A DNA stretch of 64,000 nt, from positions 7,471,768 through 7,535,767 of the forward strand of contig CAJINV010000004.1 in assembly GCA_905178155.1 (NCBI GenBank). Reading direction: 5' to 3'. Numbering within the stretch: position 1 is the first letter of the stretch; each line of letters starts with the position of its first letter. Positions 459 to 64,000 of this stretch are shown here, in pieces. Source of the DNA: Amoebophrya sp. A120. Taxonomy: Eukaryota > Protista > Dinoflagellata. Under the pieces are notes generated by a model. It saw only the letters and a program-made list of their open reading frames with translations. It made no database searches and was not told the DNA's origin. The position numbers were made by a program, and so were the translations under genes.

Positions 459-711
459 TATGCAATGCAAATACGTCTGGGTCTGGAAATTTGTGATGCA
501 AGGAAGGGAATATTAAGCACCCTGTAATGCGCTCCCCAGCATGACAAGTTTTTCCGTAGTTCAGAGTTGCGTACTCCGCATGAGAAACTGCGTTTTTGCA
601 TGACAGACAAGGGGAACTCTTCGTTGACACGCAATACAGAGTTTAGAGTCATGCCAGACTAGCATGACAAATCTCGGAATCTCCCAGACCCAGACATATT
701 TGCAGTTCATA
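459..711. mobile_element. Introner, family B (TGCAAA..GTCTGGGTCTGGA TIR)
   Basis: TIR; DR CCACG; frame restored. Confidence 0.9.
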
Positions 712-1818
712 CCACGGTTTTCAATACCACAGTGGAACACCAGGTCCCGGACTTCGTCCATGGTCGCTTCTGGTAGAAATAAGGACAAGGCCACCGCATT
801 CGTCGCAGTTTTCATCTTCGAGGATGTTGACAGGAGATCCAGCTTGCGCACACGAAAACGAGCACTCATCTCATCCAGAAGCTGCTGATGTCCACAAGAA
901 CTGCGCTTCAATTCCGCTGCGAAGCTCTTCGACGTGCCAACCAGCGCGTAGCCGTAGTCCGCTCCCCGCAACATGGGAATATCCAGCGGACTGTCCCCAA
1001 ACGCCAAAATTCGACAGCCAGGGCTTCTCTGCCGCAAATGCTCCACAACTTTCAGCTTCGCCGCAGGATTGATAATGACGGGAGTATTTCGTTCGGGGTC
1101 GAGGCCCAAGACAACCACGAAGGGACAAAATGGAAATGAGCCAGGACAAAACGCGGCACTCACAGCTTGTTCCCAGACGGCTCTCAGGCCGCACGTGACG
1201 ATGACAATCTGCAGCTTGTTCGCATTTCCAATATTGTCACGTGACGCCACTAATATCTGTTTGATCAGGTCACGGAACTCCGGGTACAGCGATTGCGATA
1301 CCTTGTGCGCGACTTGACTACACAGCTTGCGGAACTTCGTCGGTCCGAGCACCTCGAGCACGTCGGCGTAGCGTTTTGCTGCCGAAAGAAACTCTGTGTA
1401 CTTGTAGGCAGCGGTGAAGATGGTTTCCAGACGAGTAATATCCGCCGTGCTACAGAACCCTTGGAGTTGCATTTCTTCTCGTCCTCGCTTCTGTAGCTCG
1501 GATTTTTCCAACAGCTCGAAGAAAAGCGCTCCCGTATCCATGGGAGCGAGTTTTCTGTCTGCGTCAAAGACCAGGTAGGTTTCGATCGTGGAGTTCTTGA
1601 CTGGACGAAGATTGTTGAGGCCAAAATCCAGGACCGCCGGGACGAGCTGTTGGTTGTTGAACCTTTCGTGGATCGTGAGTAACCACTCTGCTACCACCCG
1701 ATGGTAACTTGCGTAGTCATCCGCAGCTAACATGAGAAAAAACTTGCCGCGGGCGGAGGACATTCTCCGTGCTAATGCTGCTTCCTCGAAGGCCATCCAA
1801 GCGTCCACCATCTCCGTT

Positions 1819-2032
1819 CATCATGAGAAAAAAGTCTTAGAGTTACTACACATTTGTTGGAGTTTCTGCATCACAAATCTTCTCTGTGTGGCAGAGAAAA
1901 CTTGTAATGCGAACATCATAAGGGAAAACAGGAAGGAAACGAGGCTCCCAAGCATTTCCTGCATGAGAAAGCTTGTCTGTGTTGCCGGTCTTGCAACACA
2001 ATGTGTAACTGTAACACTTTTTTCTTGCGATA
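1819..2032. mobile_element. Introner, family E, absent from paralog
   Basis: TIR CATCATGAGAAAAAAGT / ACTTTTTTCTTGCGATA; DR CCGTT; empty site at ~7388-7392. Confidence 0.92.
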
Positions 2033-2960
2033 CCGTTTCACCTGCGAGTAGTACCTTTCGCACTCGCTTCCCCGTTTCTGCGTCTTTTGTGCACCGCTTC
2101 AGAATCTCAGACGCAGGGGTCCGGAGGTAGAAAATGTGTGTGTAAACCTCAGAGTCGGCATTTGTGAAAGCGGTCTCGAAAGAAGAAGAAGTGGGCTCAT
2201 CACCATCCGAGGACGACAGCAGCGTCGGAAAAGCGTAGTGGCCGGCAACGACTGCAATTTTCTGCGACGCGCGTGCGCTCGCTGCGATATCACTAATCGC
2301 GCTCTCACGCACGAGGATTTTGTCCGCGGGAGAGAGAGTAGCGAAGAGCTTCAGTAAACGGTCCTCTTTCTGCTCATCTAAAGGTTCATTTAAAGGCCTC
2401 AGCTCCGGAGACACATGGTAGTTCCTGGAGGATTGATTCATCCCAGACGCATCGTTGTAACCAAGTCTCTCCACTGCACAAGCAATCCGCTCCTTGCCAT
2501 CGATGAAGAGAAACAGGTTCTTGCCGTAGGTCGCACGTAAATGGTCCAAGATGTAGGATTTTCCGCTGCCGGAAACTCCGTAAATGCCCACAACGGGAGG
2601 AGCCGCGGGTGGAAAATCTTTAGGTCCTCCCCCATCTGAATGTAGAAACCCGCTTCTTCTTTTCTTCATTCGTTCTTCCGACGGCGGCTAGACAGCGAAA
2701 TTGTCGCCCACCACGCGGGGCGGTGCTCCTGCTAGTCGTGTTGCAACGACCTGTTCAGCATATTTCTTCAGTCTCGCTACTTCCGGTAAAAGGTTCGACG
2801 CGGTTTCGGTTTGATGTCCTCCTGCAGCTTCTCGAGTAATCAACGACTTGTTGTTGTTATTCGATGAACACCTCCCTTCAACATCAACGACGCTTTTCCA
2901 AGTATCGACGATTTCAACCCCGAAATCCTTCTGCAGCTCTTCGAAAATTTGTTCCGCACG

Positions 2961-3131
2961 TATCCCACAGAAAAAAGCTGGCAGGGCAGATTTGTAATGC
3001 AAAAATAAACACACAGAAAGATCTGTAATGGGCGGCCTCATAGCATGCTATTTAGGGCATGCAATACAAATTTTTTTGTCCATTTATTTTTGCACTACAA
3101 ATATGACCTGCCAGCTTTTTTCTGTGTGATA
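2961..3131. mobile_element. Introner, family G
   Basis: Long TIR CACAGAAAAAAGCTGGCAGG; DR GCACG. Confidence 0.9.
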
Positions 3132-4313: not shown

Positions 4314-7300
4314 TTACACCTCCGTGTTGAACAGGCGGTTCCCCGTATCAGTCCCACCCACCCCATTGTACTGGTTCTCCGAAACGCGAAGGGTGAACAA
4401 ATACACTTTTACAACCAACCACGCTGAAGTAGACCGTGCGTTTTCCTCCTGAATCTGCTTGATCTGTTTCCTGAATTCGCTGTTTTCGTTCAAAGTCGCC
4501 GCCTGCACGACGCCGGTCAGCATCAGGATTCTGATTTCGTTTCTAGTCCTCGTGTTTTCGTTTTGTTGGTTTGTCGAGTTGAAGTTGTCAGGGAAAGTAG
4601 AACTTTTGTTTTTGTTTTTGTTTCTCTCCACCTCCACGATCACCTCCTTCGCCTTCTCCGCGGCAATGGTCTTGATGAATTCCACCATCGTCGCCCCGCT
4701 GTTCACCACCGGATCCACCAAAAGAAACACGCCCGCCCCACTGATGACATTGTGCTTATCCGGCAACAGATCGCCGGCTTGGTGCGGGAAGTCGATGCGC
4801 GCGGCGCTCATCTTGCCGAGGATGTCATAAACCCCGTCTGCCATGTACTTACCGGCTCGCATAATGGCGAGAATGCTGGCTTTTTTCAACATCCGGCTGT
4901 TTTGACCAAAGGAGAAGTCCGGTTCGAAACCTCCACCGGGACAAAGATGCCCCTGTTTGAAAATGATGTAAAGGTTTTTCTTGAAGAGCGCGATTTTTAA
5001 ATGTTTGTTTCCAGTACTGCAAGACGAGGTCGACCTACATGGAGGCAGGTGATCATGATAGTACTGCATTCGGTGAGAGGAAATTTCGACTGGCTCAAGG
5101 CCTGCTGGTGGTCGTCCCAAGAACTACTATATGCACAATGCGACAAAAAAGAAACTTCCTTACGTACCTGCACATGCTTGATATCGCACATTCCCAAAAA
5201 CTCGTCCCCAAAACAATCCAGCATCTTCAGCGCCAAGTATTTCCCGACCTCGGTGTGGATAGCGCCCAAGGCCGGCCCGGCGTTTGCCGCGTCGCGCATC
5301 TTCGTCGCCAAAATTTGGCTGGAAGGCAGGGTTGACCCGTCAAAACACAGCGCGAAGAAATCGAAATCTTGGCTCGTCATAGCTGGTGGACCACGACCGG
5401 AAGTGGAACAATTACGGACAGTCTTACTCCACAAAGCTTTAGAAGAAGATGCACACGTCTTCGCCGATATAATTCCGGTCCGGGAACGCTGCATGGCAGG
5501 CTCAACGAATTTTTCTCCTAGACTGTCTTTATTCGCCGCGGTCGCACGAGGACCAGTGCTGCTGGCACGAAAAATATCCAAGAAAAAAACATTGTAGGTG
5601 TAACTTTTTTGGAGGAACAGCATTACAAATTTGTCTGGCATGACAGCAAAAACCTGTCAAGCGCAAATAGTACGCGAAAACGCCCTTTAATGGACCCTAC
5701 GACGCACGCCAAGCATGACAGACGCAATCATCTTGCATGTTGCGCACCACAAATTTACACTAACAACGTTTTTTTCTTGGATAGAAAACGCGAGATGGAG
5801 ATTCTTGATCGCCTGGGACGAGGACCGTCGGACCATTCTTAACCGTGCTGGGAGGTGACGGCGCCGGACCACGTATGCAATGCAAATACGTCTGGGTCTG
5901 GAAATTTGTGATGCAAGGAAGGGAATATTAAGCACCCTGTAATGCGCTCCCCAGCATGACAAGTTTTTCCGTAGTTCAGAGTTGCGTACTCCGCATGAGA
6001 AACTGCGTTTTTGCATGACAGACAAGGGGAACTCTTCGTTGACACGCAATACAGAGTTTAGAGTCATGCCAGACTAGCATGACAAATCTCGGAATCTCCC
6101 AGACCCAGACATATTTGCAGTTCATACCACGGTTTTCAATACCACAGTGGAACACCAGGTCCCGGACTTCGTCCATGGTCGCTTCTGGTAGAAATAAGGA
6201 CAAGGCCACCGCATTCGTCGCAGTTTTCATCTTCGAGGATGTTGACAGGAGATCCAGCTTGCGCACACGAAAACGAGCACTCATCTCATCCAGAAGCTGC
6301 TGATGTCCACAAGAACTGCGCTTCAATTCCGCTGCGAAGCTCTTCGACGTGCCAACCAGCGCGTAGCCGTAGTCCGCTCCCCGCAACATGGGAATATCCA
6401 GCGGACTGTCCCCAAACGCCAAAATTCGACAGCCAGGGCTTCTCTGCCGCAAATGCTCCACAACTTTCAGCTTCGCCGCAGGATTGATAATGACGGGAGT
6501 ATTTCGTTCGGGGTCGAGGCCCAAGACAACCACGAAGGGACAAAGTGGAAATGAGCCAGGACAAACCGCGGCACTCGCAGCTTGTTCCCAGACGACTCTC
6601 AGGCCGCACGTGACGATGACGATCTGCAGCTTGTTCGCATTTCCAATATCACGTGACGCCACTATCTGTTTGATCAGGTCACGGAACTCCGGGTACAGTG
6701 ATTGCGATACCTTGTGCGCGACTTGACTACACAGATTGCGGAACTTTGTGGGTCCAAGCACCTCGAGCACGTCGGCGTAGAGTTTTGCTGCCGAAACAAA
6801 ATTATCCTGTGCAAAAGTATCGTATTCGTAGTAATTGCATTCATGCATACACAAATCTCCATACCAAGGTAAAACAGCATGACAAATTTCATTTGTCATG
6901 CTGACCGAATTTGTAATGCGATTTCTACTAGTGCGATACTTTTGCATTGCATAAAACTCGGTGTACTTGTACGAAGCAGTGAAGATGGTTTCCAGACGAG
7001 TAATATTCGCCGTGCTACTTCTGCTACAGAACCGCCCTTGCAGTTGCATATCTTCTCGCCCTCGCTTCTGTAGCTCGGATTCCAACAGCTCGAAGAAAAG
7101 CGCTCCTGTATCCATGGGAGCGAGTGTTCTGTCGGCGTCAAAGACCAGGTAGGTTTCGATCGTGGGGTTCTTGACTGGACGAAGATTTTTGAGGCCAAAA
7201 TCCAGGACCGCAGGGACGACCTGTTGATTGTTGAAGCTTTCGTGGATCGTGAGTAACCACTCCGCTACCACCCGATCGTAACTTGCGTAGTCATCCGCAG

Positions 7301-9160
7301 CTAACTTGAGAATAAACTTGCTGTGGGCGGAGGACATTTTCTGCGCTAATCCTGCTTCCTCGAAGGCCATCCAAGCGTCCACCATCTCCGTTTTCTCTTT
7401 GAGTAGAACCTTTCGCACTCGCTTCCCCGTTTCTGCGTCTTTTGTGCACCGCTTCAGAATCTCAGACGCAGGGGTCCGGAGGTAGAAAATGTGTGTGTAA
7501 ACCTCAGAGTCGGCATTTGTGAAAGCGGTCTCGAAAGAAGATGAAGTGGGCTCATCACCATCCGAGGACGACAGCAGCGTCGGAAAAGCGTAGTGGCCGG
7601 CAACGACTGCAATTTTCTGCGACGCGCGTGCGCTCGCTGCGATATCACTAATCGCGCTCTCACGCACGAGGATTTTGTCCGCGGGAGAGAGAGTAGCGAA
7701 GAGCTTCAGTAAACGGTCCTCTTTCTGCTCATCTAAAGGTTCATTTAAAGGCCTCAGCTCCGGAGACACATGGTAGTTCCTGGAGGATTGATTCATCCCA
7801 GACGCATCGTTGTAACCAAGTCTCTCCACTGCACAAGCAATCCGCTCCTTGCCATCGATGAAGAGAAACAGGTTCTTGCCGTAGGTCGCACGTAAATGGT
7901 CCAAGATGTAGGATTTTCCGCTGCCGGAAACTCCGTAAATGCCCACAACGGGAGGAGCCGCGGGTGGAAAATCTTTAGGTCCTCCCCCATCTGAATGTAG
8001 AAACCCGCTTCTTCTTTTCTTCATTCGTTCTTCCGACGGCGGCTCGACAGCGAAATTGTCGCCCACCACGCGGGGCGGTGCTCCTGCTAGTCGTGTTGCA
8101 ACGACCTGTTCAGCATATTTCTTCAGTCTCGCTACTTCCGGTAAAAGGTTCGACGCGGTTTCGGTTTGATGTCCTCCTGCAGCTTCTCGAGTAATCAACG
8201 ACTTGTTGTTGTTATTCGATGAACACCTCCCTTCAACATCAACGACGCTTTTCCAAGTATCGACGATTTCAACCCCGAAATCCTTCTGCAGCTCTTCGAA
8301 AATTTGTTCCGCACGTATCCCACAGAAAAAAGCTGGCAGGGCAGATTTGTAATGCAAAAATAAACACACAGAAAGATCTGTCATGGGCGGCCTCATAGCA
8401 TGCTATTTAGGGCATGCAATACAAATTTTTTTGTCCATTTATTTTTGCACTACAAATATGACCTGCCAGCTTTTTTCTGTGTGATAGCACGCTCGTCCTG
8501 CCCATGCCCCGCACGCGACGCGACGCCGTCCCGTGCAACAATAATCCTCGTCGCAGATGAATGAGGGTCAAGAATTATCTGGCGCGCCATCGCTTTGACA
8601 GATTCTTGCACACAGCTGGTGAGGGTCAAGCCGGTCACGAGCACTTCCTCTGTAGCAGTGTCAGTTAGAAGCGCTCGCAGTGCGCTCTTCTGCGAATCGC
8701 TGCAGTTGAAGATGTCGTTGCTACACTTGGTTAGGAGTAGCAGAAAAGGCTTTTCGCCGCTGGCGCGATGTTTCGACCAATGATCCATTAAGAAATAACC
8801 GCGATTCCGGATCACATCACGTATTTCGTCCGCAAAGCCGCGGCCCTCATCTGTGGTGCACAAGTCCATAAGGGGGTCGACGTCAACATCTCCTCCAGCA
8901 CCACTGGCAAATTGCGAACGCCGGTACTCGCTCCTGACGAGGAGAATCCAGTCGACGCGACTACCAGCCTGCAAGGCTGTGGCGATGAGCTCCGGGAGCG
9001 TTTTGCGCACCAGCTGCTGCAGAGGACAACATGCCTCCTCCCCGTACTTGCGGACAAACGGACCGTCTGACGTGACAAAATCGCGCACCGGGTCGATTAC
9101 GACCAGTCCCAGCGAAGCTGGTTTCTTGGCGGATTTTTGGTTCTCGCGGTCGCTTGCCAT
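4314..9160 (-). CDS. Multidomain fusion: isochorismatase/cysteine hydrolase + P-loop kinase + HAD-like hydrolase + uracil phosphoribosyltransferase-like domain; 4 introners and 1 GT-AG intron (4953-5167)
   Basis: LVVIDPVRDF...VTGLTLTSCV (cysteine hydrolase); GIYGVSGSGKS (Walker A); VFDADRTL and AFGDSPLDIPML (HAD); AIMRAG, LLVDPVVNSGAT and GTDTGNRLFNT (UPRTase). The frame is continuous after removing the elements. Confidence 0.85.
5575..5783. mobile_element. Introner, family E (duplicate of 160-368)
   Basis: Same TIR and DR as 160-368. Confidence 0.85.
5874..6126. mobile_element. Introner, family B (duplicate of 459-711)
   Basis: TIR; DR CCACG. Confidence 0.9.
6803..6953. mobile_element. Introner, family A (TGCAAAAGTATCG TIR), absent from paralog
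   Basis: TIR; DR AAAAT/AAACT; empty site at ~1389-1393. Confidence 0.92.
8316..8486. mobile_element. Introner, family G (duplicate of 2961-3131)
   Basis: TIR; DR GCACG; removal joins DERA-EQIFEEL. Confidence 0.9.
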
Positions 9161-40800: not shown

Positions 40801-41194
40801 TAGTGCTTTGCTTTCTCCTCGATGCGAGGCCACTCTTTTTCACGAAAGGTCCTTCAATCTTTCTGGTCAACGTTACGACCCGTCTGATCTTGTTCCCACG
40901 ATACGAGATACGGATCAAACACAGACAAAGGAGAATTTCTTAGTTTAGAAATTCACATATACAAATGAGGGGGAGGGGGAGCTGTGCAGTGTCATACACT
41001 TTGCGGACGACCGTGAATGGGCCGAAAATGGCGTCCAAGGCCTCCAGCTCGAGGAGCTGGCGGTCGAGGTTCATCTTGATGGCAGCAGCGGTGGTCATCT
41101 GGCCCCCGTCGTCGTGGTCACCCTCGCGTGGTTCGTGTTGTTCGTCGCCCCTAATATTGGGTATTCGATCATCTCGCCTGGCGGTGGTCGACAT
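37843..41194 (-). CDS. RWD-domain protein with C-terminal RapZ-C-like domain, 6 introners
   Basis: RQLLELEALDAIFG and LRLPRRNYPE (RWD); C-terminal AIAVNCRKGRHRSVAAAELL. Confidence 0.75.
38059..38273. mobile_element. Introner, family E (AAAAAACTGTTTCACTGT subtype), absent from paralog
   Basis: TIR; DR TTCAT; empty site at 28445-28449. Confidence 0.92.
38736..38991. mobile_element. Introner, family C
   Basis: TIR; DR ACAAC. Confidence 0.9.
39048..39206. mobile_element. Introner, family A
   Basis: TIR; DR CGCAG. Confidence 0.9.
39303..39545. mobile_element. Introner, family C
   Basis: TIR; DR ACTGT. Confidence 0.9.
39587..39731. mobile_element. Introner, family A (reverse orientation of 57243-57387)
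   Basis: TIR; DR GGCTG/AGCTG. Confidence 0.9.
40382..40996. mobile_element. Introner, family F, enlarged by ~390-nt internal insert
   Basis: TIR; DR CACTT; removal joins VRKV-FGAVRD; arms align with 55765-55987. Confidence 0.88.
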
Positions 41195-44703: not shown

Positions 44704-47332
44704 CTAACCCGCCTGCTTCTTCTCCGCGCCTGTTCCTCTCGGCTTGTAGTCGTAGACGATTTGCGGCTCCGGCATCAGTATGGATTGCAAATGTGTCTGG
44801 GTCTGGAAACTTGTAATGCTAAAAAAGGAATGATAGACGCACTCCACTGCAATACGCAGCTATGTCGCATGACAAATTTTTTGCCTGCCATGTGTTACGT
44901 ATTCGTATTCCGCATGGCAAACCGCGTTTTTGCATGACAGGTAAGAGTGCCTTTTCGCGACTATGCAACACAGATTCTCGAATTATAATGCCAGACAGGC
45001 ATGACAAACTTGCATTTTTGCAGACCCAGATGACATATTTGCAATTCATAACCAGCATGGCCTTCATCACCGGGTTCAGCAGCGGAAAGTTCCGGATCTG
45101 CGACTTGTGAAAGTAGTAGGGCGACTCGTAGATGGCCCCCGCGACTCCCGTATCCTATGCAAAAGTATCGCACTCGTATAAATGCATTACAAATTTCCTC
45201 AGCATGAGAAATAAAATTTGTAATGCTGATTTACCTTAAGGAAAAGATTTGTAATGCATGAATGCAATACGACTACGATACTTTTGCAGTTCATAGCCCG
45301 GCTGCTCCCGGTAGTTGTAGATCTTGTCCAGTTCGGTTTTCTGGCAAACCTTCTGCTCGTATCAAATGCAAAAATGTCTGGGTCTGGAAGATTGCGAGAT
45401 TTGTCATGCTTGTCTGGCATGGCCAAAAAGTTTGCGATGCGTGTCTAAGAAGAGACCAGTTTGCCTGTCATGCAAAAACGCAGTTTGTCATGCGAAAAAC
45501 GCAACACAAAGAAGCGCAGATATTTCTCATGCCTGCCTGTGCATTACAGGGCATTCACTATTCCCAACGCAGCACTACAAGTTTCCAGACATCCAGGGAT
45601 TTTTGCAATTGATAGCTCGATCGCCTTGCGCTGCGAGGGTGACATCGGCGAGTTGGGCGGGAGTTTCTCGTTCTTCAGGTAATGTAAAGCCGGGTCAGAT
45701 CGGTACTGCTGGATGTCCATCTTGTGGATTTCCTTTCCGACGCGCAATCTCCCCTCGAGATGGTCGTCAAAACGCGGGTAGTACTTGTCGAGCAGCGGGC
45801 TGGGATACTTGGGTAAATTCTCGTACTCCCGCTTGCTGATTTTCTTCGTGTCCATGTTGTTCTGGCGCACGGGGAAAATGCGCACGTTATCGAAGGTGTG
45901 CGGCATGTGGTACCCAATGTTCATCACGTGGCCCTCCAGCCTATGAAGTGCAAAAGTGTACTACTATCCTACTGGTGATAAAAACTCAACTGCGGTCTTC
46001 CATTTACAAATCTTTTTCTTAGAAGGCTTAGCCTTAGGTGGCAGGTAGATCGCATATTAAAATACAGACTCCATTGTACATCATCATGCCGAAGAAATTT
46101 GTAATGCAGTTAAGTACTAGTACTGAATAGTACGATACAACTTTTGCACAGGATACAGCCAGGAGCTGGTCAACCTTGGTCGGGACCACCGGTGCTCCAG
46201 GTCCTGGTCCCACTGAATATCTACGTCGTCCGTGTCGTACAGGCACAAATCCTCCTCGAAATGCCGTCTCGTCCGGGAGGGCGAGGGCGAGGAAGATGTT
46301 GACTGATGTTGAACAAACCCATCTGAGGACATCAAAGTCTCGAAGTGCGCAGCATAATCCTGATCCTCGTCCTCGACGTTACTTCCCTGTTGATCTCCTA
46401 CTGCAGCTGTATTTTTCATCGGCGACAGCACTCCTCGTCGTTGTTGCAGCTCTCTGTCCAGCGCATCTTCAGTGGTGCCACTAGTACCACTACTTTTCTG
46501 CTCCGCAAGCGACATTGTCGTGGACCTGCCCGCACGCCAGCTCTTCATGGTGGAGCGCAACAAAGGTTTCATCGGTTCCTTGGCTTGCGGTTCTTGGCGG
46601 CTGAAGGTAGTATTTGCTTGATGTGGAGAACTACGGGCGGCTGACGAGGAAAGCCCATTGGCTGGTGAAAGAACCTCATCGGGACAGGCTCCTGAACCTA
46701 CTGCGGCACCTTTATTCCCCCTGTAATTGTCTGGACTCGTCCGGGTCGTGCTGGAGGTCGGGCTACTGTTCTTCAAGATCCCCTTTTTTCCGTAAAAGTG
46801 ATCGCCGAATTTGACCGTCTTGTGCCTCGCGGACCAGTCCGGATTGGTCATCCGCGCGATTTTCTCCTCGTCCACCACGCTTCCGCGGCAGCACCGGTGT
46901 CGCGGCGAGCTGGAAATCGATTTCAACCGCAAGTGCTTCACCGCCTCCCGCGGATCGGAGGAGTCGAAGAACCGGCGCTTTGTGTCGCTGAAGATCTTCA
47001 AGTCCTCCGGTTTCAAGTCCCGGCGCCAACCTTTTGCCACGTCGGAGGTTTGCAGCAGATTGTACAGGTTCTCCCCCGACTATCGCAAGAAAAAACTGTT
47101 TCACTGTAAACTTGTGATGCATAAAATGGAACGCAGAAGTATTTGTCTTGCTACACATGCAAGAAAGTGGATTTTTAGCTGTGTTTTCCCTTAGGAAGCT
47201 TGCATGGCAAATTTTCTCTGTCATGTAGAGCGAACTTGTCATGCAAAACCTGCAAAATCCTTACAGTGAAACAGTTTTTTCGTGGGATACCGACGTCGGG
47301 TACTTGAAAGTCGACAGCGAAACGGTGCACAT
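44704..47332 (-). CDS. Hypothetical protein, 5 introners
   Basis: Reconstructed frame MCTVSLSTFKYPTSGENLYNLL...KKQAG*. Confidence 0.75.
44779..45050. mobile_element. Introner, family B
   Basis: TIR; DR ATCAG/ACCAG. Confidence 0.88.
45151..45295. mobile_element. Introner, family A
   Basis: TIR; DR TCCCG/GCCCG. Confidence 0.9.
45360..45614. mobile_element. Introner, family B
   Basis: TIR; DR GCTCG. Confidence 0.9.
45942..46155. mobile_element. Introner, family A (diverged)
   Basis: TIR; DR CAGCC. Confidence 0.85.
47081..47289. mobile_element. Introner, family E (reverse orientation of 38059-38273)
   Basis: TIR; DR CCGAC. Confidence 0.92.
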
Positions 47333-51802: not shown

Positions 51803-54643
51803 TCAATACGCATGAGAAATTATCGGTGGTGGCTGTGATGTTTCACAAAATACTTGCGAGGCGACATCGGTGTGCTCGTGCTTGTCGAGATGGTCACCGT
51901 TTGTCGTCTGGATGAAGGATGCACTTGAGTGGAAACTACCCCACTGACGGTCCTGCTTGCGCTGAGCGATGAGCGTCCGGTCCTTGCTGTCCAGCTGCCT
52001 TCTCCACGTTGCCTGTTGTGAACCATTTATGAAGATTGCGATTGTGTCTGTGATATCAACTGCAAAAATGTCTGGGTCTGGATGATTTCGGGATTTGTCA
52101 TGCACGTTTTGCATGAGCCATGATGTCTGCGACGCATGCCGTAACATCACAGATTTTTTGAGGGGTTCTTGATGCCTCTTCCGCATGAAAAATGCCCTCT
52201 CCGCGTAGCAAAAATCACATTCCCTTTGCTGCTCCTGCTGCAATACAATTTTTTTTAGAATCCGATGACAGCATCACACGTTGCAACCTTCCAGACCCAG
52301 ACATATTTGCATTTGATATGTGACACGCTGAGAAAATACTGTATTGGTATTGGCATTCACGCTACGATTTCCGGATCTACGTGCAATCCGCTTGGAGCCT
52401 TCTGCGCTGGCCTAAGGCCTTCGTTCTTTTGGTTTTACCGCACGCCATCGGATGGCTTTCGTTCCTGTTGAGCACTTCCAATTCCTGATGGCTCGTGCTC
52501 AACAAAACATGTTTCTGCATTTATCTAGACCGTCTTTGGCACATCGAAATCAAAACCACACACAGCATCAAAGACAAAGACTTACTGCATGGGGCGGCAC
52601 GAGCCAGGGGCGACTGGCGGGACCGTCTGCGAGAGGCTGAATAGGGGCTACGCGTGGTGGTTGCCGTCTGTTGATGCCCCGAGCCGCCTGCAATCGCCTG
52701 TAATGCGGGTTGGGTTGAGCTTGATTTTCCGGGATGCGGGGGTTTGACGCGCTTGACTTTCATATAGTAGATTCTCGAAACTAAACTGGGCAAACGAAAA
52801 AGAATCTACTAGCAAGGCAGCCGCGGGCCCGAACACCACCCACAGGCCGATGGTGCTCGTTCGGCGGAAATTTTCCGCCTAACGAGCACCATCGAAGGAC
52901 TTAAATGTAAATCTCAATGCGCATCAAAATGTTCCGGCTGAACGCAGTCCAGCCATGGCGTAGTAAAGCTTCATCGCGCTTCATCATCCCAAAGCATCGC
53001 GCAATCCCCTTGCTAGAGTCTCCGGGATACTGTTTCCCTAGTTTTTAAAGTTGTGCAACAACTCTACCCCTTTCCGCCGGCGGAAAGGGGGGGAGGGGGT
53101 ACCACCCACCTGCCCGGGATTTTCGGTCGGCACGAAAAAAACGAACTGGGGCCGCCTCTACGGAAAGGGGGGGAAGGGGGGGCGCCACCCACCTAAACGG
53201 TGTCGGTCCCCCTTTCCGCCGCCGGAAAGGCAAAGGGGTAGGGTTGTTGCACAGCTTAAAATTATAGTTTCCCGTGGTCTCTGTGGATCTTCTTCTTCAG
53301 GTTATATCTAATCTACCTATTCGCTACATCGAATGTGAGGCGCATTATTATTTTGTGTCAATACTAATACAGGAACCCAGATCTTCATGCAGCGGCTAGC
53401 CCTGTTGGGCATCAACTTCTGCACCCTAGGTCGGATTATCGCTCCTAAAAACCGTGGGGCCTGGAGGTGCGCCATTTCACACCTTTGCATCCATTTCTCA
53501 TGTGTCCTTGGACCTAACTACCAAGCATCCCATTCATGTTCGACCTGATCCTGAAGCACAGCCTGCATTTTTGGTACATTTACGTGAAAAAGGTGGCGAT
53601 ACTCGACATCAATCCTTTTTTGTGGCGGCCGAAACACCTCTGGCTCGGATTCCGGACTGCTCACCTCTAGTTCATTCGAGGACTGCTCCTTGGCATCGGT
53701 TGCGGATGCGGACGGCGACGGCCAGCAAGAACACGAATTATACGACGATCGGACGTAGTTCGCGCAGTCTGCAAACGAATAGCCTTTCTGGATGAAACTC
53801 GAAGATCCCGTGTAGTCCTCGACAGCAATCGGGACGCCGCCGCCAGGCTGGTGCCCCGGTACTTCTCCGCCTTGCTATGCATTGCAAAAGTCAAAGTATC
53901 GCACTTCTATTGTGGATTGCATTTACAAATTTTCCGAGGAACAAAAATGCATTTGCCATGCTGTTTTATGTACAAACTTGCAAGTATACAAGTGCGTTAC
54001 TTTATTTGCAGAGGATACTTGCGCTCCACCCGCAGCTGCAACGCCGGGACCTCCCGAAAACTTGTCGCAGAACGCCTTCGCCTCAAGCCGAGACACGCGA
54101 CCATCTCCATTTCCGTCCACCCTCGCTCCCGCAATCGCTTCCAGTTGTGCTACGATGGCGTTTTTCTGCTTCGTCGCAGTGTCGAGGACGTGGTTCGTCT
54201 GGGCCAGCAAACCGAAGAGCCTGGGGTTTTAACGTCCGTCTGTTCCTACGATCACCATCTACACTGTTGACTAGTCGAAGTAGAAGAGTAGAAGTGACCA
54301 ACAACTGCTGTTGAACTTCTCCTACTACCTGCGTGCCTTTGCAGAGTAAGTGACATGACATCGTGAATCACGATCGTGATACTGAGAGGGACACGACAAC
54401 ACATCAGCTGCAGCTACAGATAGGTGTAGTTCTAATGAATCAAAAAATTCTACGTACACCAAATTAATACATTTTGACGTGATCTTCCGGAATCAACTCC
54501 CCTGGGACCACGCAAACGTTGAGGACGACCACAAACCAAAATAGCACAGACATCCCCACGGACCACGACACCGGAGAGGGAGAAGAAGAATGGTGGCGCT
54601 GCCAGCGGTCCCAGCGGCGAAGGCTGTAGCCCTTGCCCTTCAT
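51803..54643 (-). CDS. EF-hand-containing, probably secreted protein, tandem paralog 2, with 2 introners and canonical introns
   Basis: Same EF loop; 54050-54530 nearly identical to 49480-49950; hydrophobic N-terminal segment; boundaries uncertain. Confidence 0.5.
52054..52318. mobile_element. Introner, family B
   Basis: TIR; DR TGTGA. Confidence 0.9.
53049..53256. mobile_element. GC-rich MITE unrelated to the introners
   Basis: TIR AGTTGTGCAACAACTCTACCCC / GGGGTAGGGTTGTTGCACAGCT; TTAA-like flanks; internal palindrome CCCCTTTCCGCCGGCGGAAAGGGG. Confidence 0.75.
53876..54017. mobile_element. Introner, family A (diverged)
   Basis: TIR; DR CTTGC. Confidence 0.85.
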
Positions 54644-55628: not shown

Positions 55629-58600
55629 CTAGCACCCGTACCTGTGGTTATCCAAAATCATGATCGGCACCGCCTGCTCGTGGTAGAAGCCGAGTGGTTC
55701 CCACACCAGCCCAACCAACGCGGCCACTTCCTGCAGGGCCATGAACTCGCCATCTAAAATCTAGTATGACAGTGCATAACTCCCCCTCGTTCTCATTTCT
55801 CATGCAAAAGACTCAACTTACCCTTTCCCTCCTGTCACTATTATGCATGACAAGTTCTGGTAGCCCAAATAGCACTAGACTCCAGCGCAAATGTGTCATG
55901 CAAAACCCGCTGCATTCTTGCCGACGCTTGTGATGCTGCTCATGCAATACAAATGAGGGGGACGAGGGGGAGTTGTGCACTCTCATATCCAGCCGTCATA
56001 GTTGATCAACTCGTCAAACACCAGCACCTATGGGTTGCAAATATGTCTGGGTCTGGAAGATTGCAACTTGTCATGCTAAATGTGAATCATGCAAAAATCT
56101 GTGTTGCATGAGTGCCAAAAGCTGCCCACTTTCGGCCAAGTTGGGAGGGGATTTCTCATGCAGTATAGGCATGAAAGAAACCTCATAGAGTTTGTCATGG
56201 TAGCTCCCGCATTCCAGACCTCATGGGTCATGGAAATCCTGCATGACAGATCTGGCATCCTTGCAGACCCAGACATTTTTGCATTTGATAGCACCGTGCC
56301 CCGCTCCAGCCGGCAGGCGAAATGCAGCAGCACCTCCCGGGCCGCGGGGTAAATATCCATGTCCATGTGTAGGAAGGCGACGCGGGTTAGGTGATCCAAA
56401 TCGGTTTTCGTTTCGTTGAACCAGCCCTTGTGGACTTGGATGTTGGGCATGTTGGTCACGATTTCCGGCACTTTGCCCTCCATGGTAAAGGTCCCGCCCT
56501 CCAGGTTGTTCCACTTCTCCGGGATGCCAACGAACGAATCGAAACCGTGTAAGGTGACGCGGGAACCGTATCTGAAGGTGGAAAAATTCGTTTTTGACAC
56601 ATACTGACAGCCAGGCATGGCACAAGCACAACATTAGGTATTCATATTTGCATTCACATTCTATCTTGCTTGCATGAGAAAAAAATCGCACAAATTTGCA
56701 ATAGATACGTTTTCTTCAGCGCGGTTGCAATGTAGGCAGTCGACTTTCCGCTCGCCACGCCAAACTCGGCCCAGACCGTCCCCTCCGCGTCCGCGTTTTC
56801 GATTCCCGCTTGTACGGCGTACTGCAGACTTTCGCTCATCATGGCCATCCACGACTCTCGTGCGGTTAAGTTTGCGGTCCACAGCGCCGCGGGCTCGTCA
56901 ATGTTTGCAATGTTGAATTCTAGTCTGTCCAGCGGCTCCCCTAAGAGCTGTTGCTGGTGTTGCGGTGGTGATTCTTGTTGCGCGCCTGGTACTGCTTCCT
57001 CTTGTAAGAGTTCTGCGTTAGTGCTGCTCGCCAGCTGATCCTGCGGCGCGCTCGCAGCAGCCGCCATGTACTGCAGCAAAACCTTCGCGTGCTCCTCATC
57101 CATGGTCTTAAACAGCCGCGCTCGGTTGCGCGGCCGGTCGGAATAGCCGTTGAGCGCTGGTGTGGCCTCCCACACGTCCGGAAAGTTCACTTCCAGCGGG
57201 GTCGGCTCACCACTCGACGTCGGCAACAGCAGCGCTTCCACCTATGACTTGCAAAAGTATCGCACTCGTATAAATGCATTACAAATTTCCTCAGCATGAG
57301 AAATAAAATTTGTAATGCGGATTTACCTTAAGAAAAAGATTTGTAATGCATGACTGCAATACGAGTACGATACTTTTGCACAGGATACCACCCGGTAGTT
57401 CGCGACGACCGGTGCGGGGACCCAGAGCACGGGTAAGTGGGTGGAAACGTCTTATCGAATGCCAAAATGTCTGGGTCTGAAAGAGTGCTCGGTCTGTCAT
57501 GCAGGTTTTCCAGGACCCACGCGGTCTGGCATGCACGGCCTAGCATGACAGGTTCTGTGAGATCTCTATCATGCCGTCCCTGCATGAGAAATTGCCTCTT
57601 TTGGTAATCATGCAACACAAATTTTTCCACGATCCAGATGTAGCATGACAAGTTACACTCTTCCAGACCCAGACATATTTGCGATGCATACGTCCTCCGT
57701 TTTCACCAAATCAATCCCCTGCAGACACATCTCGGCCTGGAAATCGTAGCCGATGCAGCTGGACCCGAGTTCGTCTTTCAATAGGCCATATTACAATGAA
57801 AAATGCTCCCACCCCCGAACTCGGGGGCATTTGTATTGCAAACCTTTCCAAGTGAGACATTCGCGCTCTTGCATCTATCAACACCACAGATTTCCGATTG
57901 TGAATAGCAAAAATCTGTATTGCAAAAGACCCCAGCAAGAGCGGCACTTGTCATGCAAGCGATGCGACGCACGCGTAGGCTCTGCATGTGCATCAGAAAG
58001 ATAAGATTCATACTCCTTTCGTGCATGATGACAAAACGTTTTCATTTGGAAACTTCGCATCACAAATTTTTCCAACTTTGGGGGTGGGGGCATTTTTCCT
58101 TTCGATAGGCCCACCGCGTTGAAGACGCTGGCCATCCGCAGCGGGTTGTGCCGCGCGGGGGATATGCATTGCAAAAGTATCGTACTAGTATAAATTGCAA
58201 TACAAATCGGCTCTGCGTATACAAATTAAATTTGTAATGCGGATTTCCCTTAGCACGTAGATTTGTAATGCATAAACTGCAATTAGTACGAGTGCGATAC
58301 TTTTGCACTGGATAGGGGACTCGTTCTGCTGAAACCAATCCTCGACGGATTTTTCCGGGTATGGATTGCAAAAATGTCTGGGTCTGGAAGATTGCAACTT
58401 GTAATGCTGTTTTTGGATTCCAAAAAAATCTGTAGTGCATGACCAGCAACAGGACTCCACGTTGTGTTACGTAGAGAGGGCATTTCTCATGCGGAGCAGG
58501 CATTAGGGAGCCCGCTAAAAATCTGTGTTGCTAGATCATGCATTACAGGCATCAGGCGTCATGCGAAAAATGCATGACAAACCTGGCAATCTTCCAGACC

Positions 58601-59848
58601 CAGACATTTTTGCATTTGATACCGGGCTGCAGTAGCTGATCGAGTAGGTCGCCACGAGGTAGGTTTCGTTCAGAAACTATCCTGATTAAAAACGTACCAA
58701 CACCAGAGTCAAGATGGGGATTTTGCAACACAAACCTAGGAGTTTTGGGAGTCACGCATGACAAGTTTCAGTCTGTAAGGTAGTGCAAGTTAGCAAGGAA
58801 AGCCGCATCACAAATCGATCTGCTGATCCTGTTTACAGCATTACAAGTTCCCAAACACGATTGAAAATGCCTGTCATGGGGTTGCGCATCACAAATGTTC
58901 CTGTCATGGCAAATCTGCATGACAACTCTGGTGTGGGTACGTTTTTACTCAGGATAGAAACGGAGCGACTAACGGGATCATCCGTTCTCGGGAGGTAGTC
59001 GCTTTATTCATCGCACCGGTGTTGCCGCCGTCAAGAAGTGCTAGTTTATCCCCACCTCCTGCCGCGGTGACCGCGTCTGCGTTCGCTGGGCCGATGGGGT
59101 GTGTCGCAACGAAGGGCTGGGGATGCTTGTAGGGAAAATCGCGATTCTCCGTGTAGTAAAGCGGGTCGAACTGGAAGCGAAACCGCTGGTGCTGGCCGTA
59201 TTTAGGCAGCTCCTGCTTCGCTTTCGCGGCTGTCATCGACGCCATCAAGGCTTCTTCTTGTCCGGGTAAAACCACCTGCTGCTCAGCCTGAACTCCTGCA
59301 GGACCAAGGTTCAATGTTTCCGTGATGTTTAGACACAGGAGAAGCTTCAGAACCGAAAGAGCAGATGAATTGGAATTCTTCCCTCCTCGTCGTGGCAATA
59401 TAGCGGGGCCGTGCTGGTGCGGCCTTTTCCGTAGGAGATTTTTGGCGTTGTCTGTGACTGGGCTGGGTGGATTTCTCAATATCGATGAACCCGACATTGA
59501 TGGACCACCATCAGACGTTGATGGTGGTCCACCTCCCGGTCGTGTGTAGAGGTAGTAGTTGCGACTATGTCCATAATCGCTCGGTCCTGTAGTACGTCTC
59601 TTTGTTCCCGCGTCAACATGTGTTGATCCATCCTGGTCTTCACCGATTCCCGACGAGGAACTTGATGCCTTTGAAGGACATCTGGTTGATATTTCCGCAG
59701 AGGATTTCGACAAAGTTCGCTTCCCTCCGCCTGAGCCTGGTGGAAGTAAATACGCACCTTCCCCTTCCGCGCACGGAAAAACACACACCGTTGACGGCGA
59801 CCACGCCGTCGCCAGTGGTTCCGGCTCGTCTAACCAAGCGACCGACAT
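55629..59848 (-). CDS. Class I SAM-dependent methyltransferase (TylF/Methyltransf_24-like) with long N-terminal extension; 8 introners + 1 GT-AG intron
   Basis: EFGVASGKS, HGFDSFVGIPEKW, KGWFNET, AFLHMDMDIY, VFDELINYDGW..GEF. Confidence 0.85.
55765..55987. mobile_element. Introner, family F
   Basis: TIR; DR TCTAG/TCCAG. Confidence 0.88.
56029..56290. mobile_element. Introner, family B
   Basis: TIR; DR GCACC. Confidence 0.9.
56572..56708 (-). other. GT-AG intron with introner-like remnants
   Basis: GTATCT...TTCAG restores LKKT-YGSRV; TATCT/AGATA ends. Confidence 0.7.
57243..57387. mobile_element. Introner, family A
   Basis: TIR; DR CCACC. Confidence 0.92.
57453..57690. mobile_element. Introner, family B
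   Basis: TIR; DR CGTCT/CGTCC; interior like 21364-21625. Confidence 0.9.
57789..58107. mobile_element. Introner, family H
   Basis: TIR; DR GGCCA/GGCCC. Confidence 0.88.
58163..58314. mobile_element. Introner, family A
   Basis: TIR; DR GGGGA. Confidence 0.9.
58360..58621. mobile_element. Introner, family B
   Basis: TIR; DR CCGGG. Confidence 0.9.
58678..58956. mobile_element. Introner, family D
   Basis: TIR; DR GAAAC. Confidence 0.92.
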
Positions 59849-61268: not shown

Positions 61269-63126
61269 TCAGTTGTGTCCGAACGGCTTCAGCCCGGCAC
61301 TAAACTCGACGAACCCGAGCTTCCTGGCACCGCGGGCGTACCTCGTCCAGAGCAACTCCATGTCGGTGGCTCGAATGGCCTTCTCGGACAGGACGGCGCG
61401 TTTCAAATCTTGCATGTTCATATACCCCTTGTCCTGGGAGATCAGCAGGAACGCGTCCAGCAGGAGCGACGACAGGGATTCACCGGAGAACGCGAGCTGC
61501 ATCCTAAGCAAAAACGTCCTCCCCCCAGAGTCAAGTTGGGAATCTAGCAACACAACCCTCCAAGTTGTGGGGGCTGTGCATGACAAGTTCTTTGTTCCCT
61601 CTGCAGTGTAGTGCTGGTTGGCAAGGGAAGCCGCAGGAGAAAGCTATTTTCTTTTTCTACTCCTGTTTACTACAGCAATACAAATTCCAAAGCACGATTG
61701 AAAACGCCTCTCATGGAGCTGCGCATTACAAATCGATTCCTCTCATTGCACATTTGCATGACAACTCTGGGAAGATGGGGACGTTTTTACTCAGAATATG
61801 CTGCTTCTTCAACTCTTCCTGTTCCAACGCGCAGTCGACGCTGAGCTTCAAAAAGTTCCGCAGCTTGTGCCGTTGGGTCATGGTCAGGCGGAATTGGTGG
61901 TCGCGGTCGTCTCCGATCAAGTTGCACCGGAAAGCCGTGCGGCAAGACGGACAGGTCACCTGATAAAGTGATATATTGGATAATTTTCTTGTACACAATT
62001 GTAGTCCTCCTTGATCGCACCAAAGCGAATTCACTCAAAATTATTTGCATCTGATATTCACCTGCATCTGCAGGATGTACTTGAGAATATTTTCGGTTTT
62101 TGAATGAAGCTCCACTCAATCTCAATCGACGTTCCTTGCTTATTTTCAACACACCCTCCTAACGTACATACAACGAATCATAGTACCTGCGGACAGCCTT
62201 CTTGCGTTCTCTGCGTCCTCAAACCGCATCCCGGACACGAGATCGTGGAGCGCACCACCCACAGGATGTTCTTGGTTTCCTCGTCGGTCATGTCCGAATG
62301 CACGTTCTGCCACTCCTCCGCCTGCCGGGGGAACAGGAATTGCGTCAACTCCGCCAACGACAGCTGCCCAAAGATTTTCTCTTTTGCGGCCGCCGCGTTC
62401 GTCGTGCCCTTCAGGTCGCGAAACAGCGCGCACACACCCGCGAACGTGACCCCGCCCTGGAATTCCGAACCGTGCATCACGGTCCAGATGTCCGTGTCCG
62501 CGATGTGCTTCTTGTTGCAGCGGTCGAGCATCTGGAAGGCGGCCTCGATGTTGATCCCGTCCTGCCACAGCTTCTCCTTCTCCTGCTCCAGGTAGTTGTC
62601 CAGGTCGATTTGCTGGAACATCACGTCCAACACGAGGGAGAGGCTTTCCATCTGCCGTTTCCGCTTCAAATCCGCGTATCCGGAGTAAAAACGTCCCCAA
62701 GATGGAAAATCTGCTAGACAAAACGGCCAACTTTGGTTGTTTCGCATGACAAGTTTGTCCTGGTAGTGTGATCCTGAGTAACTAAAAATTCAGCAGCATC
62801 ACAGCTCTAGCATATCATGCTCTTTCCAGCATCACAAATCCCAAAACACAACTAGAAAAACAAAAAGCTTCTCCTGGGGCTTTGCATGAGATACTTTTTT
62901 GGCATGCAAATTCGCCTGACAGACAACTCTGGGGTGGAGATGCTTTAACTCGGAATACCGCGGTGTAGGTGTTCATGCCGTTGTTCAGCTTGGAACTAGT
63001 GTTGTCCTTCTCTATGGCACCGTAGTAGTCGTCCTCGTCCAACGTGGTCGAGTTGTTCATGTGGCGCACGGTGCTCGAGAATTTTGGGCCACAATTTGAC
63101 ACCTTGCGACTCGCGGGCGAGGCCAT
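61269..63126 (-). CDS. EF-hand-like protein with a Cys-rich zinc-binding (IBR-like) segment; 2 introners + GT-AG intron 61960-62186
   Basis: AAFQMLDRCNKKHIADTDI, LISQDKGYMNMQDL; CPGC..RTQEGCPQVTCPSC..F.C. Confidence 0.7.
61500..61798. mobile_element. Introner, family D (diverged)
   Basis: TIR; DR AGCTG/TGCTG. Confidence 0.88.
62677..62957. mobile_element. Introner, family D-like
   Basis: TIR TATCCGGAGTAAAAACGTCCCC; DR CCGCG. Confidence 0.85.
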
Positions 63127-63308
63127 GGCAGAGGACAGAACGCGGGTGTAGGTGCTGTGTTTCAGTTGTGTTTTGATTTATTCAGTCTATTTATTCCATG
63201 GCAGAGGTAGATGATGTTGATGCTCTAAAAATAAATATATTTATTTCCTACATGCTGAAGAAACACATAATATACAGACACGACATTCATGAGGTGGAAA
63301 AGTAAGAC

Positions 63309-64000
63309 TCATGATTTCATCGCGTGCAAAAATTCATATTGGCAAACAAAATCCACTACTTCTACTATTCTGTCGTGCAAAAAAATCAAGTACGATGCAA
63401 TGGGCGACATATCCTGGTCCGAGTCCGCCGGCGCCATCGTACTATGCATTGCAAATATGTCTGGGTCTGGAAGAAAGCAAGTTTGTCATGCTTGGCTCAC
63501 ATGAATCTTAAATCTGTAATGCCAGAGCAGGAAAAAAGGCTCTTCCCTATCGTGCAAATATGCAGTTTGTCATGCGGAATGCGAAACACACGGGAGCTCA
63601 ATAACTTGTCATGCGTGGCTGCATATTGATATGCGCCCACCATTCACAAACTGACATCACAAGTTTCCAGACGCAAACATTTTTGCATTTGATACGTGCT
63701 GCCCATGGACATGTTCAACAGAACTTGGTCGCTGTTGGCCTTCGTGGTGGTGGCGGCCTTCATCATCTTCGGCGACACGACAGCAGTACTACTTGTTGAT
63801 CCAGTGGTCCTAGCCGCCGGCGAGAACGATCGCGGTGACATGATGCTGGCCGTGTAGGAGACCTGCTTTTCCCGGTAGTTGGCCAACGAGTCCTGCTGCT
63901 TCTTGGTCCGGCCGCGTGGGGAGGACAAACTCGTGTTGCGGTTCAGGGTCGTGTAGTCCAGCTTCGTCGATTTGCCCCGCATGTCGGTGGAGGCCAGGCT
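63309..64000 (-). CDS. 3' part of a hypothetical gene running off the window
   Basis: Open frame 64000-63695 continues after the introner; stop position uncertain. Confidence 0.5.
63443..63694. mobile_element. Introner, family B
   Basis: TIR; DR CGTAC/CGTGC. Confidence 0.88.

What the first reader, a model, noticed from the sequence alone, without database searches (positions are those of the whole stretch)
459..63694. Family-independent internal motif GCAT(G/T/C)ACA(A/G), repeated in both orientations inside the introners
Seen: TTGTCATGC/GCATGACAA, TTGTAATGC/GCATTACAA and TTGTGATGC/GCATCACAA recur several times per element (e.g. 491, 539, 598, 662 in 459-711). They occur in families whose TIRs and interiors are otherwise unalignable, and look rare in exons and in 9200-20600. 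They also explain why many short ORFs read CHA/MTN/HHKF/LSC. Inference: a binding-site array for a shared dsDNA- or RNA-binding factor that marks the elements for removal or mobilisation; a strand-symmetric signal fits orientation independence.
Basis: partly seen in the sequence, partly recalled or inferred. Interest (0 to 1): 0.82.

Follow-up and report, generated by a model that had tools for sequence, protein, structure and literature searches.

The report
Helically phased DNA code inside introners
Many otherwise unrelated jumping introns of what is likely the marine parasite Amoebophrya share one short DNA word set at whole-turn distances of the double helix from their ends and from each other, which likely marks where a still unknown protein grips the DNA to copy them, rather than a signal for splicing them out.

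Summary
The motif is real: 142 of 146 strict hits lie in 54 TIR elements (TAT-N7-AAA ends, 5-bp TSD), 10.2 versus 0.08 per kb outside. With 440 further elements from loci L001-L147, all 15 multi-copy families carry it, and 13 profiled families are essentially unalignable once it is masked. It is a pseudo-palindrome, (T)GCA(T/A)[G/C/T]ACA(A/G), conserved above its neighbours in 9 of 9 families. It follows a DNA-helix grammar: same-orientation neighbours 31-33 bp apart, outermost site 37-39, 45-49 or 57-60 bp from the end. RNA-guess contigs skip the elements, but no test supported an RNA role: no strand bias, no pairing signal, and decay at the control rate in older copies. Best reading: subterminal double-stranded-DNA sites for one shared mobilisation factor, selected in progenitor copies. 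No transposase was found. The introners are published; I did not find the motif or its phasing in print.

The parts
160..368 (.). introner, family 2; strict sites at element positions 46> 64> 139> ('>' = GCAT..ACA on +, '<' = reverse)
459..711 (.). introner, family 0; sites 33< 64< 81> 140> 204>; TSD 5/5
1819..2032 (.). introner, family 2, one end mutated; sites 50> 84<; absent from the paralogous gene near 7390
2961..3131 (.). introner, family 10; site 32<
5575..5783 (.). duplicate of 160-368 (segmental duplication)
5874..6126 (.). duplicate of 459-711
6803..6953 (.). introner, family 1; sites 75> 91< 109<; absent from the paralog near 1385
8316..8486 (.). paralog of 2961-3131 (99.4% identical); site 32<
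21139..21296 (.). introner, family 1; site 77<
21364..21625 (.). introner, family 0; sites 42< 91> 215>
23155..23305 (.). introner, family 1; sites 40> 74< 105<
23789..24038 (.). introner, family 6 type; sites 89> 141<
24061..24335 (.). introner, family 0; sites 40< 177< 194>
24383..24694 (.). introner, family 9; sites 96> 163< 228> 259>
24736..25049 (.). introner, family-6-like ends; sites 43< 94> 146< 265>
25253..25531 (.). introner, family 3 (all sites one orientation); 128> 161> 209> 240>
25589..25896 (.). introner, family 7; sites 42< 91> 124< 156< 259>
26871..27027 (.). introner, family 1; sites 69< 107<
27880..28029 (.). introner, family 1; sites 35> 69< 100<; skipped in RNA-guess contig; empty site in paralog near 37915
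28090..28358 (.). introner, family 0; sites 41< 95>; skipped in RNA-guess contig
28940..29305 (.). introner, family 0, rearranged, no TSD, outside any long ORF (likely 3' UTR); site 42<; skipped with an unambiguous joint that fixes the +1/+4 geometry
30919..31153 (.). introner, family 6; sites 42< 88> 137<; skipped in RNA-guess contigs
31218..31479 (.). introner, family 0; sites 74< 130>; skipped
31654..31930 (.). introner, family 0; sites 47< 112< 177< 231>; skipped
32897..33073 (.). introner, family 1, TSD decayed; sites 55> 92>; skipped
33853..34116 (.). introner, family 0; site 223>; skipped
34319..34636 (.). introner, family 0 type, diverged; sites 164> 264>; skipped
34694..35964 (.). 1271-bp nested element with family-7-like ends; skipped as one unit
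36097..36331 (.). introner, family 5, decayed: no strict site (two weak profile sites), still skipped
38059..38273 (.). introner, family 2; sites 52> 176>; empty site in paralog near 28447
38736..38991 (.). introner, family 6; sites 47< 94> 149< 206>
39048..39206 (.). introner, family 1; sites 45> 79> 95< 113<
39303..39545 (.). introner, family 6; sites 47< 98> 147< 194>
39587..39731 (.). introner, family 1; sites 39> 104<
40382..40996 (.). family-5-type element, lengthened to 615 bp; sites 93> 141<
44779..45050 (.). introner, family 0; sites 33< 89> 154> 221>; skipped in X3, X5, X6, joint absent in DNA-like run X1
45151..45295 (.). introner, family 1; sites 34> 68< 99<
45360..45614 (.). introner, family 0; sites 42< 106< 126< 182>
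45942..46155 (.). diverged family-1-like element with one site (158<); skipped in X3/X5, present in an X1 contig
47081..47289 (.). introner, family 2; sites 32< 156<; skipped in X3
52054..52318 (.). introner, family 0, outside any long ORF; site 42<
53876..54017 (.). decayed family-1-like element; no strict site
55765..55987 (.). introner, family 5; sites 81> 164<
56029..56290 (.). introner, family 0; sites 40< 213>
56569..56707 (.). decayed singleton element; no strict site; removing it restores a 624-codon frame
57243..57387 (.). introner, family 1; sites 34> 68< 99<
57453..57690 (.). introner, family 0; sites 42< 91> 191>
57789..58107 (.). introner, family 9; sites 160< 269>
58163..58314 (.). 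introner, family 1; sites 70< 101<
58360..58621 (.). introner, family 0; sites 40< 181> 213>
58678..58956 (.). introner, family 3; sites 79> 128> 161> 209> 240>
61500..61798 (.). introner, family 3; sites 79> 224> 257>
62677..62957 (.). introner, family 3 type; sites 68> 120> 153>
63443..63694 (.). introner, family 0; sites 41< 72< 125< 164<

Best explanation
The motif is a conserved pseudo-palindromic word repeated in helical phase inside otherwise unrelated TIR introners, and it is likely the subterminal double-stranded-DNA binding site of one shared mobilisation factor (a transposase or its cofactor) rather than a splicing signal. Shown: enrichment, presence in all 15 multi-copy families, slower evolution than neighbouring bases, 31-33-bp spacing of same-orientation sites, outermost site at steps of about 10.4 bp from the end, no strand bias, decay at the control rate in older copies, 5-bp TSD, and skipping of element plus 5 nt in RNA-guess contigs. 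Inferred: a protein binds the sites on one face of B-DNA in register with the TAT-N7-AAA tip and helps build the end complex that copies the element with a 5-bp staggered insertion. Only copies with an intact, phased array would become progenitors, which keeps the motif in every family's master line while inserted copies lose it. Removal from RNA would rest on the terminal inverted repeat, cut 1 nt before and 4 nt after the element.
For: Spacing: 18 of 27 same-orientation neighbour gaps in 13 family layouts are 31-33 bp, in 11 of 13 families; null mean 1.6, maximum 7 in 20,000 layouts. Per element, 531 of 1177 same-orientation versus 1 of 624 opposite-orientation neighbour pairs fall at 31-33. 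End distance peaks at 37-39, 45-49 and 57-60; best period 10.3-10.5, R 0.83 over 20 ends, P 0.00065 with one end for each of 12 families. Held-out conservation: core 0.87-0.97 versus interior 0.69-0.82 in 9 of 9 families, variable base at or below the interior in 6 of 9. A is excluded at the variable base (16 of 1345). After masking, family profiles hit other families in only 2 single sequences. Spacers are not tandem-duplication relics (0.284 versus 0.273). Matched masked blocks: youngest copies core 0.025 versus control 0.066, rise with age +0.026 versus +0.030, difference -0.003, 95% interval -0.024 to +0.016. Private length changes, mostly +3 and +6, hit phased intervals as often as others (5.7, 4.2, 4.4 per kb). 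Exact 5-bp direct repeats flank 339 of 440 elements. Transposase binding to subterminal repeats is documented for Hermes (PMC10368747, passages) and the Emigrant MITE (PMC1636448, abstract).
Against: No transposase or autonomous element was found: none among long elements, 20 window ORFs or 146 of 428 locus ORFs. Farhat et al. found no transposase in A120 and argued against general transposase mobilisation (PMC7789003, passages). Families with different sub-terminal TIR sequence would normally have different transposases (general knowledge). Sites are above chance outside recognised families: 77 in long non-coding DNA versus 12-19 shuffled, 21 in 12 of 72 non-family short gaps versus 0-2, 38 in exon calls versus 11-14. 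Some decayed or GT-AG-like introns keep an intact pair at 32-33 bp (L024, L053), which neutral decay does not predict well. An earlier unmasked test gave a slower core decay (+0.004 versus +0.013, interval including equality). TIR blocks also decay with age, so that test may be blind to weak selection for splicing. Age marks are crude. No binding was measured.
Confidence: 0.6

Rival explanations
1. A host chromatin or transcription factor binds the phased array on DNA for a host purpose (marking, silencing, modifying, or flagging the element for co-transcriptional splicing), and elements spread because they carry its sites.
For: Helical phasing and strand symmetry fit any dsDNA binder. Sites exceed shuffles in non-family DNA and intact pairs persist in some relic or GT-AG-like introns. 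No transposase is known in A120 (PMC7789003). One site shared by families with different TIRs fits a host protein.
Against: A host benefit predicts protection after insertion, which was not seen. Phase is tied to the element tip. 33 of 40 GT-AG-type gaps have no site.
Confidence: 0.17
2. The motif is an RNA signal read on the pre-mRNA by a factor that replaces U1-type recognition and directs removal of the element.
For: The elements are skipped in RNA-guess contigs with a fixed geometry. U1 snRNA was not detected in Amoebophrya (PMC7789003). The pseudo-palindrome offers a UGY-N3-RCA-like word on either strand.
Against: Fully polarised elements are 17 sense and 18 antisense; family 3 is 13 and 17; sites overall 946 and 1023. 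A 10.4-bp phase has no meaning on single-stranded RNA. Elements with no strict site (36097) or one (45942) are skipped. No protection after insertion.
Confidence: 0.1
3. The motif is a passive relic of one ancestral element or of gene conversion between families and binds nothing.
For: All families share TAT-N7-AAA ends, a 5-bp TSD and a similar size, so common ancestry is likely; the same TIR variants recur at both ends and in families 0 and 1.
Against: The core is far more conserved than the interior while its middle base varies freely but avoids A. Layouts differ by family yet keep the 31-33 rule. No other 6-mer is shared by more than 4 of 13 families after masking.
Confidence: 0.08
4. Opposite-orientation copies pair with each other to extend the RNA or single-stranded-DNA hairpin.
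For: Some convergent pairs form perfect local hairpins (6877-6901); divergent pairs at 13-15 bp show a small excess of complementary middle bases (40 of 117 versus 30.8 expected, uncorrected for relatedness).
Against: Outermost partners 63 versus 61.7 expected, convergent pairs 32 versus 30.0; G-U 165 versus A-C 168; families 3 and 8 have all sites in one orientation.
Confidence: 0.05

Closest known systems
Amoebophrya A120 introner elements (Farhat et al. 2021, PMC7789003; read: abstract, passages, sections 11 and 12, term search of the supplement text)
   Same: IR starting TAT, seven looser bases, then AAA; mean length near 240 nt; non-canonical ends; many families; co-oriented genes; no transposase found.
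   Different: In what I read they describe no internal motif or spacing rule, and give 3-5-nt direct repeats with variable splice positions. Here the TSD is 5 bp and one geometry (1 nt + element + 4 nt) fits 14 of 14 joints examined. Supplementary figures are pictures and were not seen.
Subterminal repeats of TIR transposons: hAT Hermes, Ac, Tol2 (PMC10368747, passages) and the Emigrant MITE bound by Lemi1 proteins (PMC1636448, abstract)
   Same: Short motif repeated in both orientations inside the ends, quasi-palindromic, with an AT-rich flank, bound cooperatively and needed beyond the TIR.
   Different: There the repeats belong to one element and its own transposase. Here one motif with one spacing rule is shared by at least 13 unalignable families, no cognate protein is known, and the elements are also removed from RNA.
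IS3EU/GingerRoot and other integrase-like DDE transposons (PMC10045372, passages; PMC12130899, passages and 19 of 58 A120 table rows)
   Same: TA..TA termini; integrase-like homology was reported for one A120 TIR family.
   Different: IS3EU/GingerRoot TSDs are usually 6 bp, here 5 bp; no transposase ORF was found; 14 of the 19 A120 rows I saw are classed TIR DNA with superfamily Unknown.
Euglenid non-conventional introns (PMC11282704, passages)
   Same: Non-canonical junctions set at fixed offsets from a terminal stem, with TSD-like repeats.
   Different: Different offsets and end motif; the review passages mention no shared phased internal motif.

Membership tests
Amoebophrya A120-type introners | Terminal IR beginning TAT, seven variable bases, then AAA | tested here: met
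   TAT was required by my detector; positions 11-13 are A in 0.86-0.93 of ends without being required.
Amoebophrya A120-type introners | Short direct repeat at the boundaries | tested here: met
   Exact 5-bp repeat at 339 of 440; detection asked for at least 3 of 5 matches; empty paralogous sites in the window.
Amoebophrya A120-type introners | Removed from transcripts with non-canonical ends | tested here: met
   14 joints in contigs of runs guessed to be RNA; DNA-like run X1 reads through three elements; removal restores frames of up to 1313 codons. The RNA label is the tool's guess and joint tables were cut.
Amoebophrya A120-type introners | Host is Amoebophrya | tested here: inconclusive
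   Inferred from the match to the published signature; no marker gene was tested and run names are coded.
Transposase-bound subterminal repeats | Short motif repeated near both ends, conserved in propagating copies | tested here: met
Transposase-bound subterminal repeats | Bound by the cognate transposase and needed for transposition | not testable with these tools
   Needs binding and transposition assays.
Transposase-bound subterminal repeats | An autonomous partner with the same ends and motif exists | tested here: inconclusive
   None in about 0.7 Mb held; the whole genome was not available.
IS3EU/GingerRoot | TA..TA termini | tested here: met
   feature from PMC10045372.
IS3EU/GingerRoot | TSD usually 6 bp | tested here: not met
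   0 of 440 have an exact 6-bp repeat, 339 have 5 bp (detector tuned to 5 bp).
hAT superfamily | 8-bp TSD (recalled; 5-bp variants recalled for hAT5) and a BED-domain transposase | tested here: inconclusive
   TSD is 5 bp, 0 of 440 have 8 bp; no transposase at hand.
RNA splicing enhancer | Strand-specific presence on the pre-mRNA | tested here: not met
   17 sense versus 18 antisense polarised elements; 946 versus 1023 sites.
RNA splicing enhancer | Purifying selection in inserted copies | tested here: not met
   Core decay equals control decay within the interval; crude age marks limit the power.

The most novel reading that the evidence does not exclude
One host-encoded or domesticated protein, not family-specific transposases, reads a universal phased DNA code (tip plus sites at 37/47/58 bp and every 32 bp) and mobilises any sequence that carries it. 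A separate, family-specific terminal stem lets the insert be cut out of RNA at fixed +1/+4 offsets without GT-AG. That would be a two-code intron-making system that lets unrelated sequences become introners by the thousand.
Probability: 0.2. Interest if true: 0.85.

Novelty: new variant of a known kind. Interest (0 to 1): 0.62.

Why it matters
How Amoebophrya introners move and how they are spliced without GT-AG or a detectable U1 is stated as open in PMC7789003, where no A120 transposase was found. A shared, phased DNA site is a concrete bait to catch the missing factor. It argues that the many families depend on one machine, and it separates the signal for copying from the signal for removal. 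The single +1/+4 geometry gives a testable splicing rule.

Tried and rejected
Unconstrained EM merged both strands of the pseudo-palindrome and double-called sites; its spacing table was discarded and redone with single calls. A first impression of a 16-bp lattice resolved into 31-33 for same-orientation sites, 17-18 or 35-36 for convergent and 13-15 or 44-48 for divergent. The fully masked decay test inflated core decay through gap placement; replaced by matched blocks. Conservation was circular; replaced by hold-out. Tandem-duplication origin rejected. Viral scan for paired motifs gave scattered single matches, 116 of 120 loci with only the two matched sites; the TIR pattern gave 0 viral hits. 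No Rfam hit in the window. No RNA holder is listed on record; raw RNA runs X9 and X10 laid only 87 and 118 reads. Whole genome not held; locus records not searchable. Roy et al. 2023 not held. Earlier-findings look-ups were empty. Atlas search of the ORF at 12600-13763 gave only weak hits. Resemblance of the motif to the Sox-Oct composite, THAP and ApiAP2 sites is recalled, untested and not used. The GT-AG classifier is rough: 15 of 72 false calls on reversed gaps. Dropped before counts: two duplicate window elements and all elements over 450 bp; 63 of 494 elements had no strand call.


Full report
Setting. The window is eukaryotic, with genes on the minus strand. It holds 54 elements of 139-366 bp (two longer), with ends TAT-N7-AAA and 5-bp flanking repeats. 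This matches the published description of Amoebophrya A120 introners (PMC7789003, sections 11-12 and passages); the organism is inferred from that match. Removing each element plus 5 nt restores minus-strand frames of up to 1313 codons. Paralogous genes in the window show empty sites with a single copy of the 5-mer.

Observation. Confirmed at the quoted positions. 142 of 146 strict hits are inside elements, 10.2 versus 0.08 per kb. A scan for the commonest TIR fetched loci L001-L147, all from one public assembly. They gave 644 kb of non-redundant DNA and 440 more elements, with no false calls in 216 kb of shuffled DNA. These loci are biased towards family 0, so I weighted or counted by family. 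The 481 elements kept form 15 multi-copy families and 27 singletons. Every multi-copy family carries the motif; all members but two (both in family 1) have at least two profile sites. After masking motifs and tips, 13 family profiles cross-hit only two single sequences.

What the motif is. The profile is (T)GCA(T/A)[G/C/T]ACA(A/G)(A)(T), a pseudo-palindrome TGY-N3-RCA around the T, with an AT-rich flank. Its variable base takes G, C or T but almost never A (16 of 1345). In hold-out tests the six core bases match the family consensus at 0.87-0.97 against 0.69-0.82 for the interior, in 9 of 9 families. So it is selected, and not just inherited.

Grammar. Measured between dyad centres, same-orientation neighbours sit 31-33 bp apart: 18 of 27 gaps in 13 family layouts, in 11 families, against a null mean of 1.6 and maximum of 7. 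Per element this is 531 of 1177, versus 1 of 624 for opposite orientations. Convergent pairs favour 17-18 or 35-36 bp and divergent pairs 13-15 or 44-48. The outermost site lies 37-39, 45-49 or 57-60 bp from the end, a period of 10.3-10.5 (R 0.83; P 0.00065 with one end per family). Three turns of B-DNA are 31.5 bp (established). The spacers are no more alike than between families, so this is not a decayed tandem repeat.

Removal from RNA. Contigs of runs guessed to be RNA skip element plus 5 nt at 11 of the 15 joints shown and at 3 places. The DNA-like run X1 has flat 41-46x depth and reads through the elements at 45942, 53876 and 56569. One placement fits all 14 joints: the intron is 1 nt + element + 4 nt on the transcribed strand. 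It is forced by one joint (28935) and narrowed to two options by three more. Joint tables were cut, and raw RNA reads barely mapped, so efficiency was not measured.

RNA or DNA role. Strand calls from a codon model are nearly uniform within loci and agree with the Pfam-bearing ORFs of six loci. No family shows a significant orientation bias. Elements whose four or more sites all point one way are 17 sense and 18 antisense. Middle bases of potential partners do not covary for outermost or convergent pairs; divergent pairs show a small excess that is not corrected for relatedness. G-U and A-C are equal at motif partners (165, 168), with a slight G-U lean in TIR positions 8-28 (313, 255). Element 36097 has no strict site and 45942 has one, yet both are skipped.

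When selection acts. With blocks masked identically, the youngest copies differ from their neighbours at 0.025 in the core and 0.066 in control blocks, but both rise equally with age marks (+0.026, +0.030). Private length changes, mostly +3 and +6, break the phase as often as they fall elsewhere. This is the pattern expected if selection acts on progenitors during copying and not on inserted copies. Against it: an unmasked version leaned towards slower core decay; TIR blocks decay too, so weak splicing selection could be missed; and sites exceed shuffles outside known families, including intact 32-33-bp pairs in relic or GT-AG-like introns. Still, 33 of 40 GT-AG-type gaps have no site, 1.3 per kb against 17 in elements.

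Mechanism. Most likely (0.6) a shared dsDNA-binding factor of the mobilisation machinery occupies the phased sites in register with the tip, as transposases do on subterminal repeats of Hermes (PMC10368747, passages) and Emigrant (PMC1636448, abstract). Binding and identity of the factor are inferred. No transposase was found in long elements, 20 window ORFs or 146 of 428 locus ORFs. A host DNA-binding factor is the main rival (0.17).

Novelty. The introners are known. Searches for Amoebophrya introner papers, for the motif strings (20 of 109 listed, none on this topic by title) and in the text of Farhat's supplement did not show the motif or its phasing. Supplementary figures, Roy et al. 2023 and subscription papers were not seen. 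Subterminal repeats are a known kind; one phased motif shared by 13 or more unalignable, spliceable families is a new variant. Interest 0.62.

Noticed in passing
window joints at 27874-47290: A single splice geometry (1 nt + element + 4 nt) fits 14 of 14 joints, including elements with decayed or no TSD, one outside any long ORF and a 1271-bp nested one.
   Followed up: partly
elements in window and L001-L147: Private length changes are mostly +3 and +6 even inside introns, suggesting a genome-wide bias towards triplet micro-duplications.
   Followed up: partly
element ends, positions 4-7: TIR positions 4-7 are variable, often mismatched between the two ends, and draw on the same few variants in families 0 and 1; some tips contain a perfect TGC-N3-GCA word.
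   Followed up: no
families 3, 4, 5, 8, 9, TIR positions 15-28: Unrelated families share a C-rich tract just inside the tip that would form a strong G-C stem.
   Followed up: no
window 9325-10391 and 13765-14830: Diverged direct repeats of about 1 kb, 4.44 kb apart, flank an intronless 388-codon ORF (12597-13763, minus) with no Pfam hit and only weak Atlas hits; the region lacks introners.
   Followed up: partly
window 1-3840 and 5415-9200: Tandem gene duplication (AAA/HAD-like, next to a UPRTase domain gene) with shared and private introner insertions; further duplicated blocks at 27400-28560/37450-38400 and 47880-50950/50940-55500.
   Followed up: partly
L019:19332-19440 and L071:896-998: Same insertion site with near-identical flanks but elements about 84% alike and in opposite orientation relative to those flanks; possible replacement or inversion of the element in place.
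   Followed up: no
L053:4567-4746, L039:2470-2590, L024:3315-3490: Non-family introns, two with GT-AG-like ends, keep intact motif pairs; possible old introners turning into canonical introns.
   Followed up: partly
window 28736: 26 raw RNA reads of run X10 carry a T run here, consistent with a poly(A) end of a minus-strand transcript.
   Followed up: no
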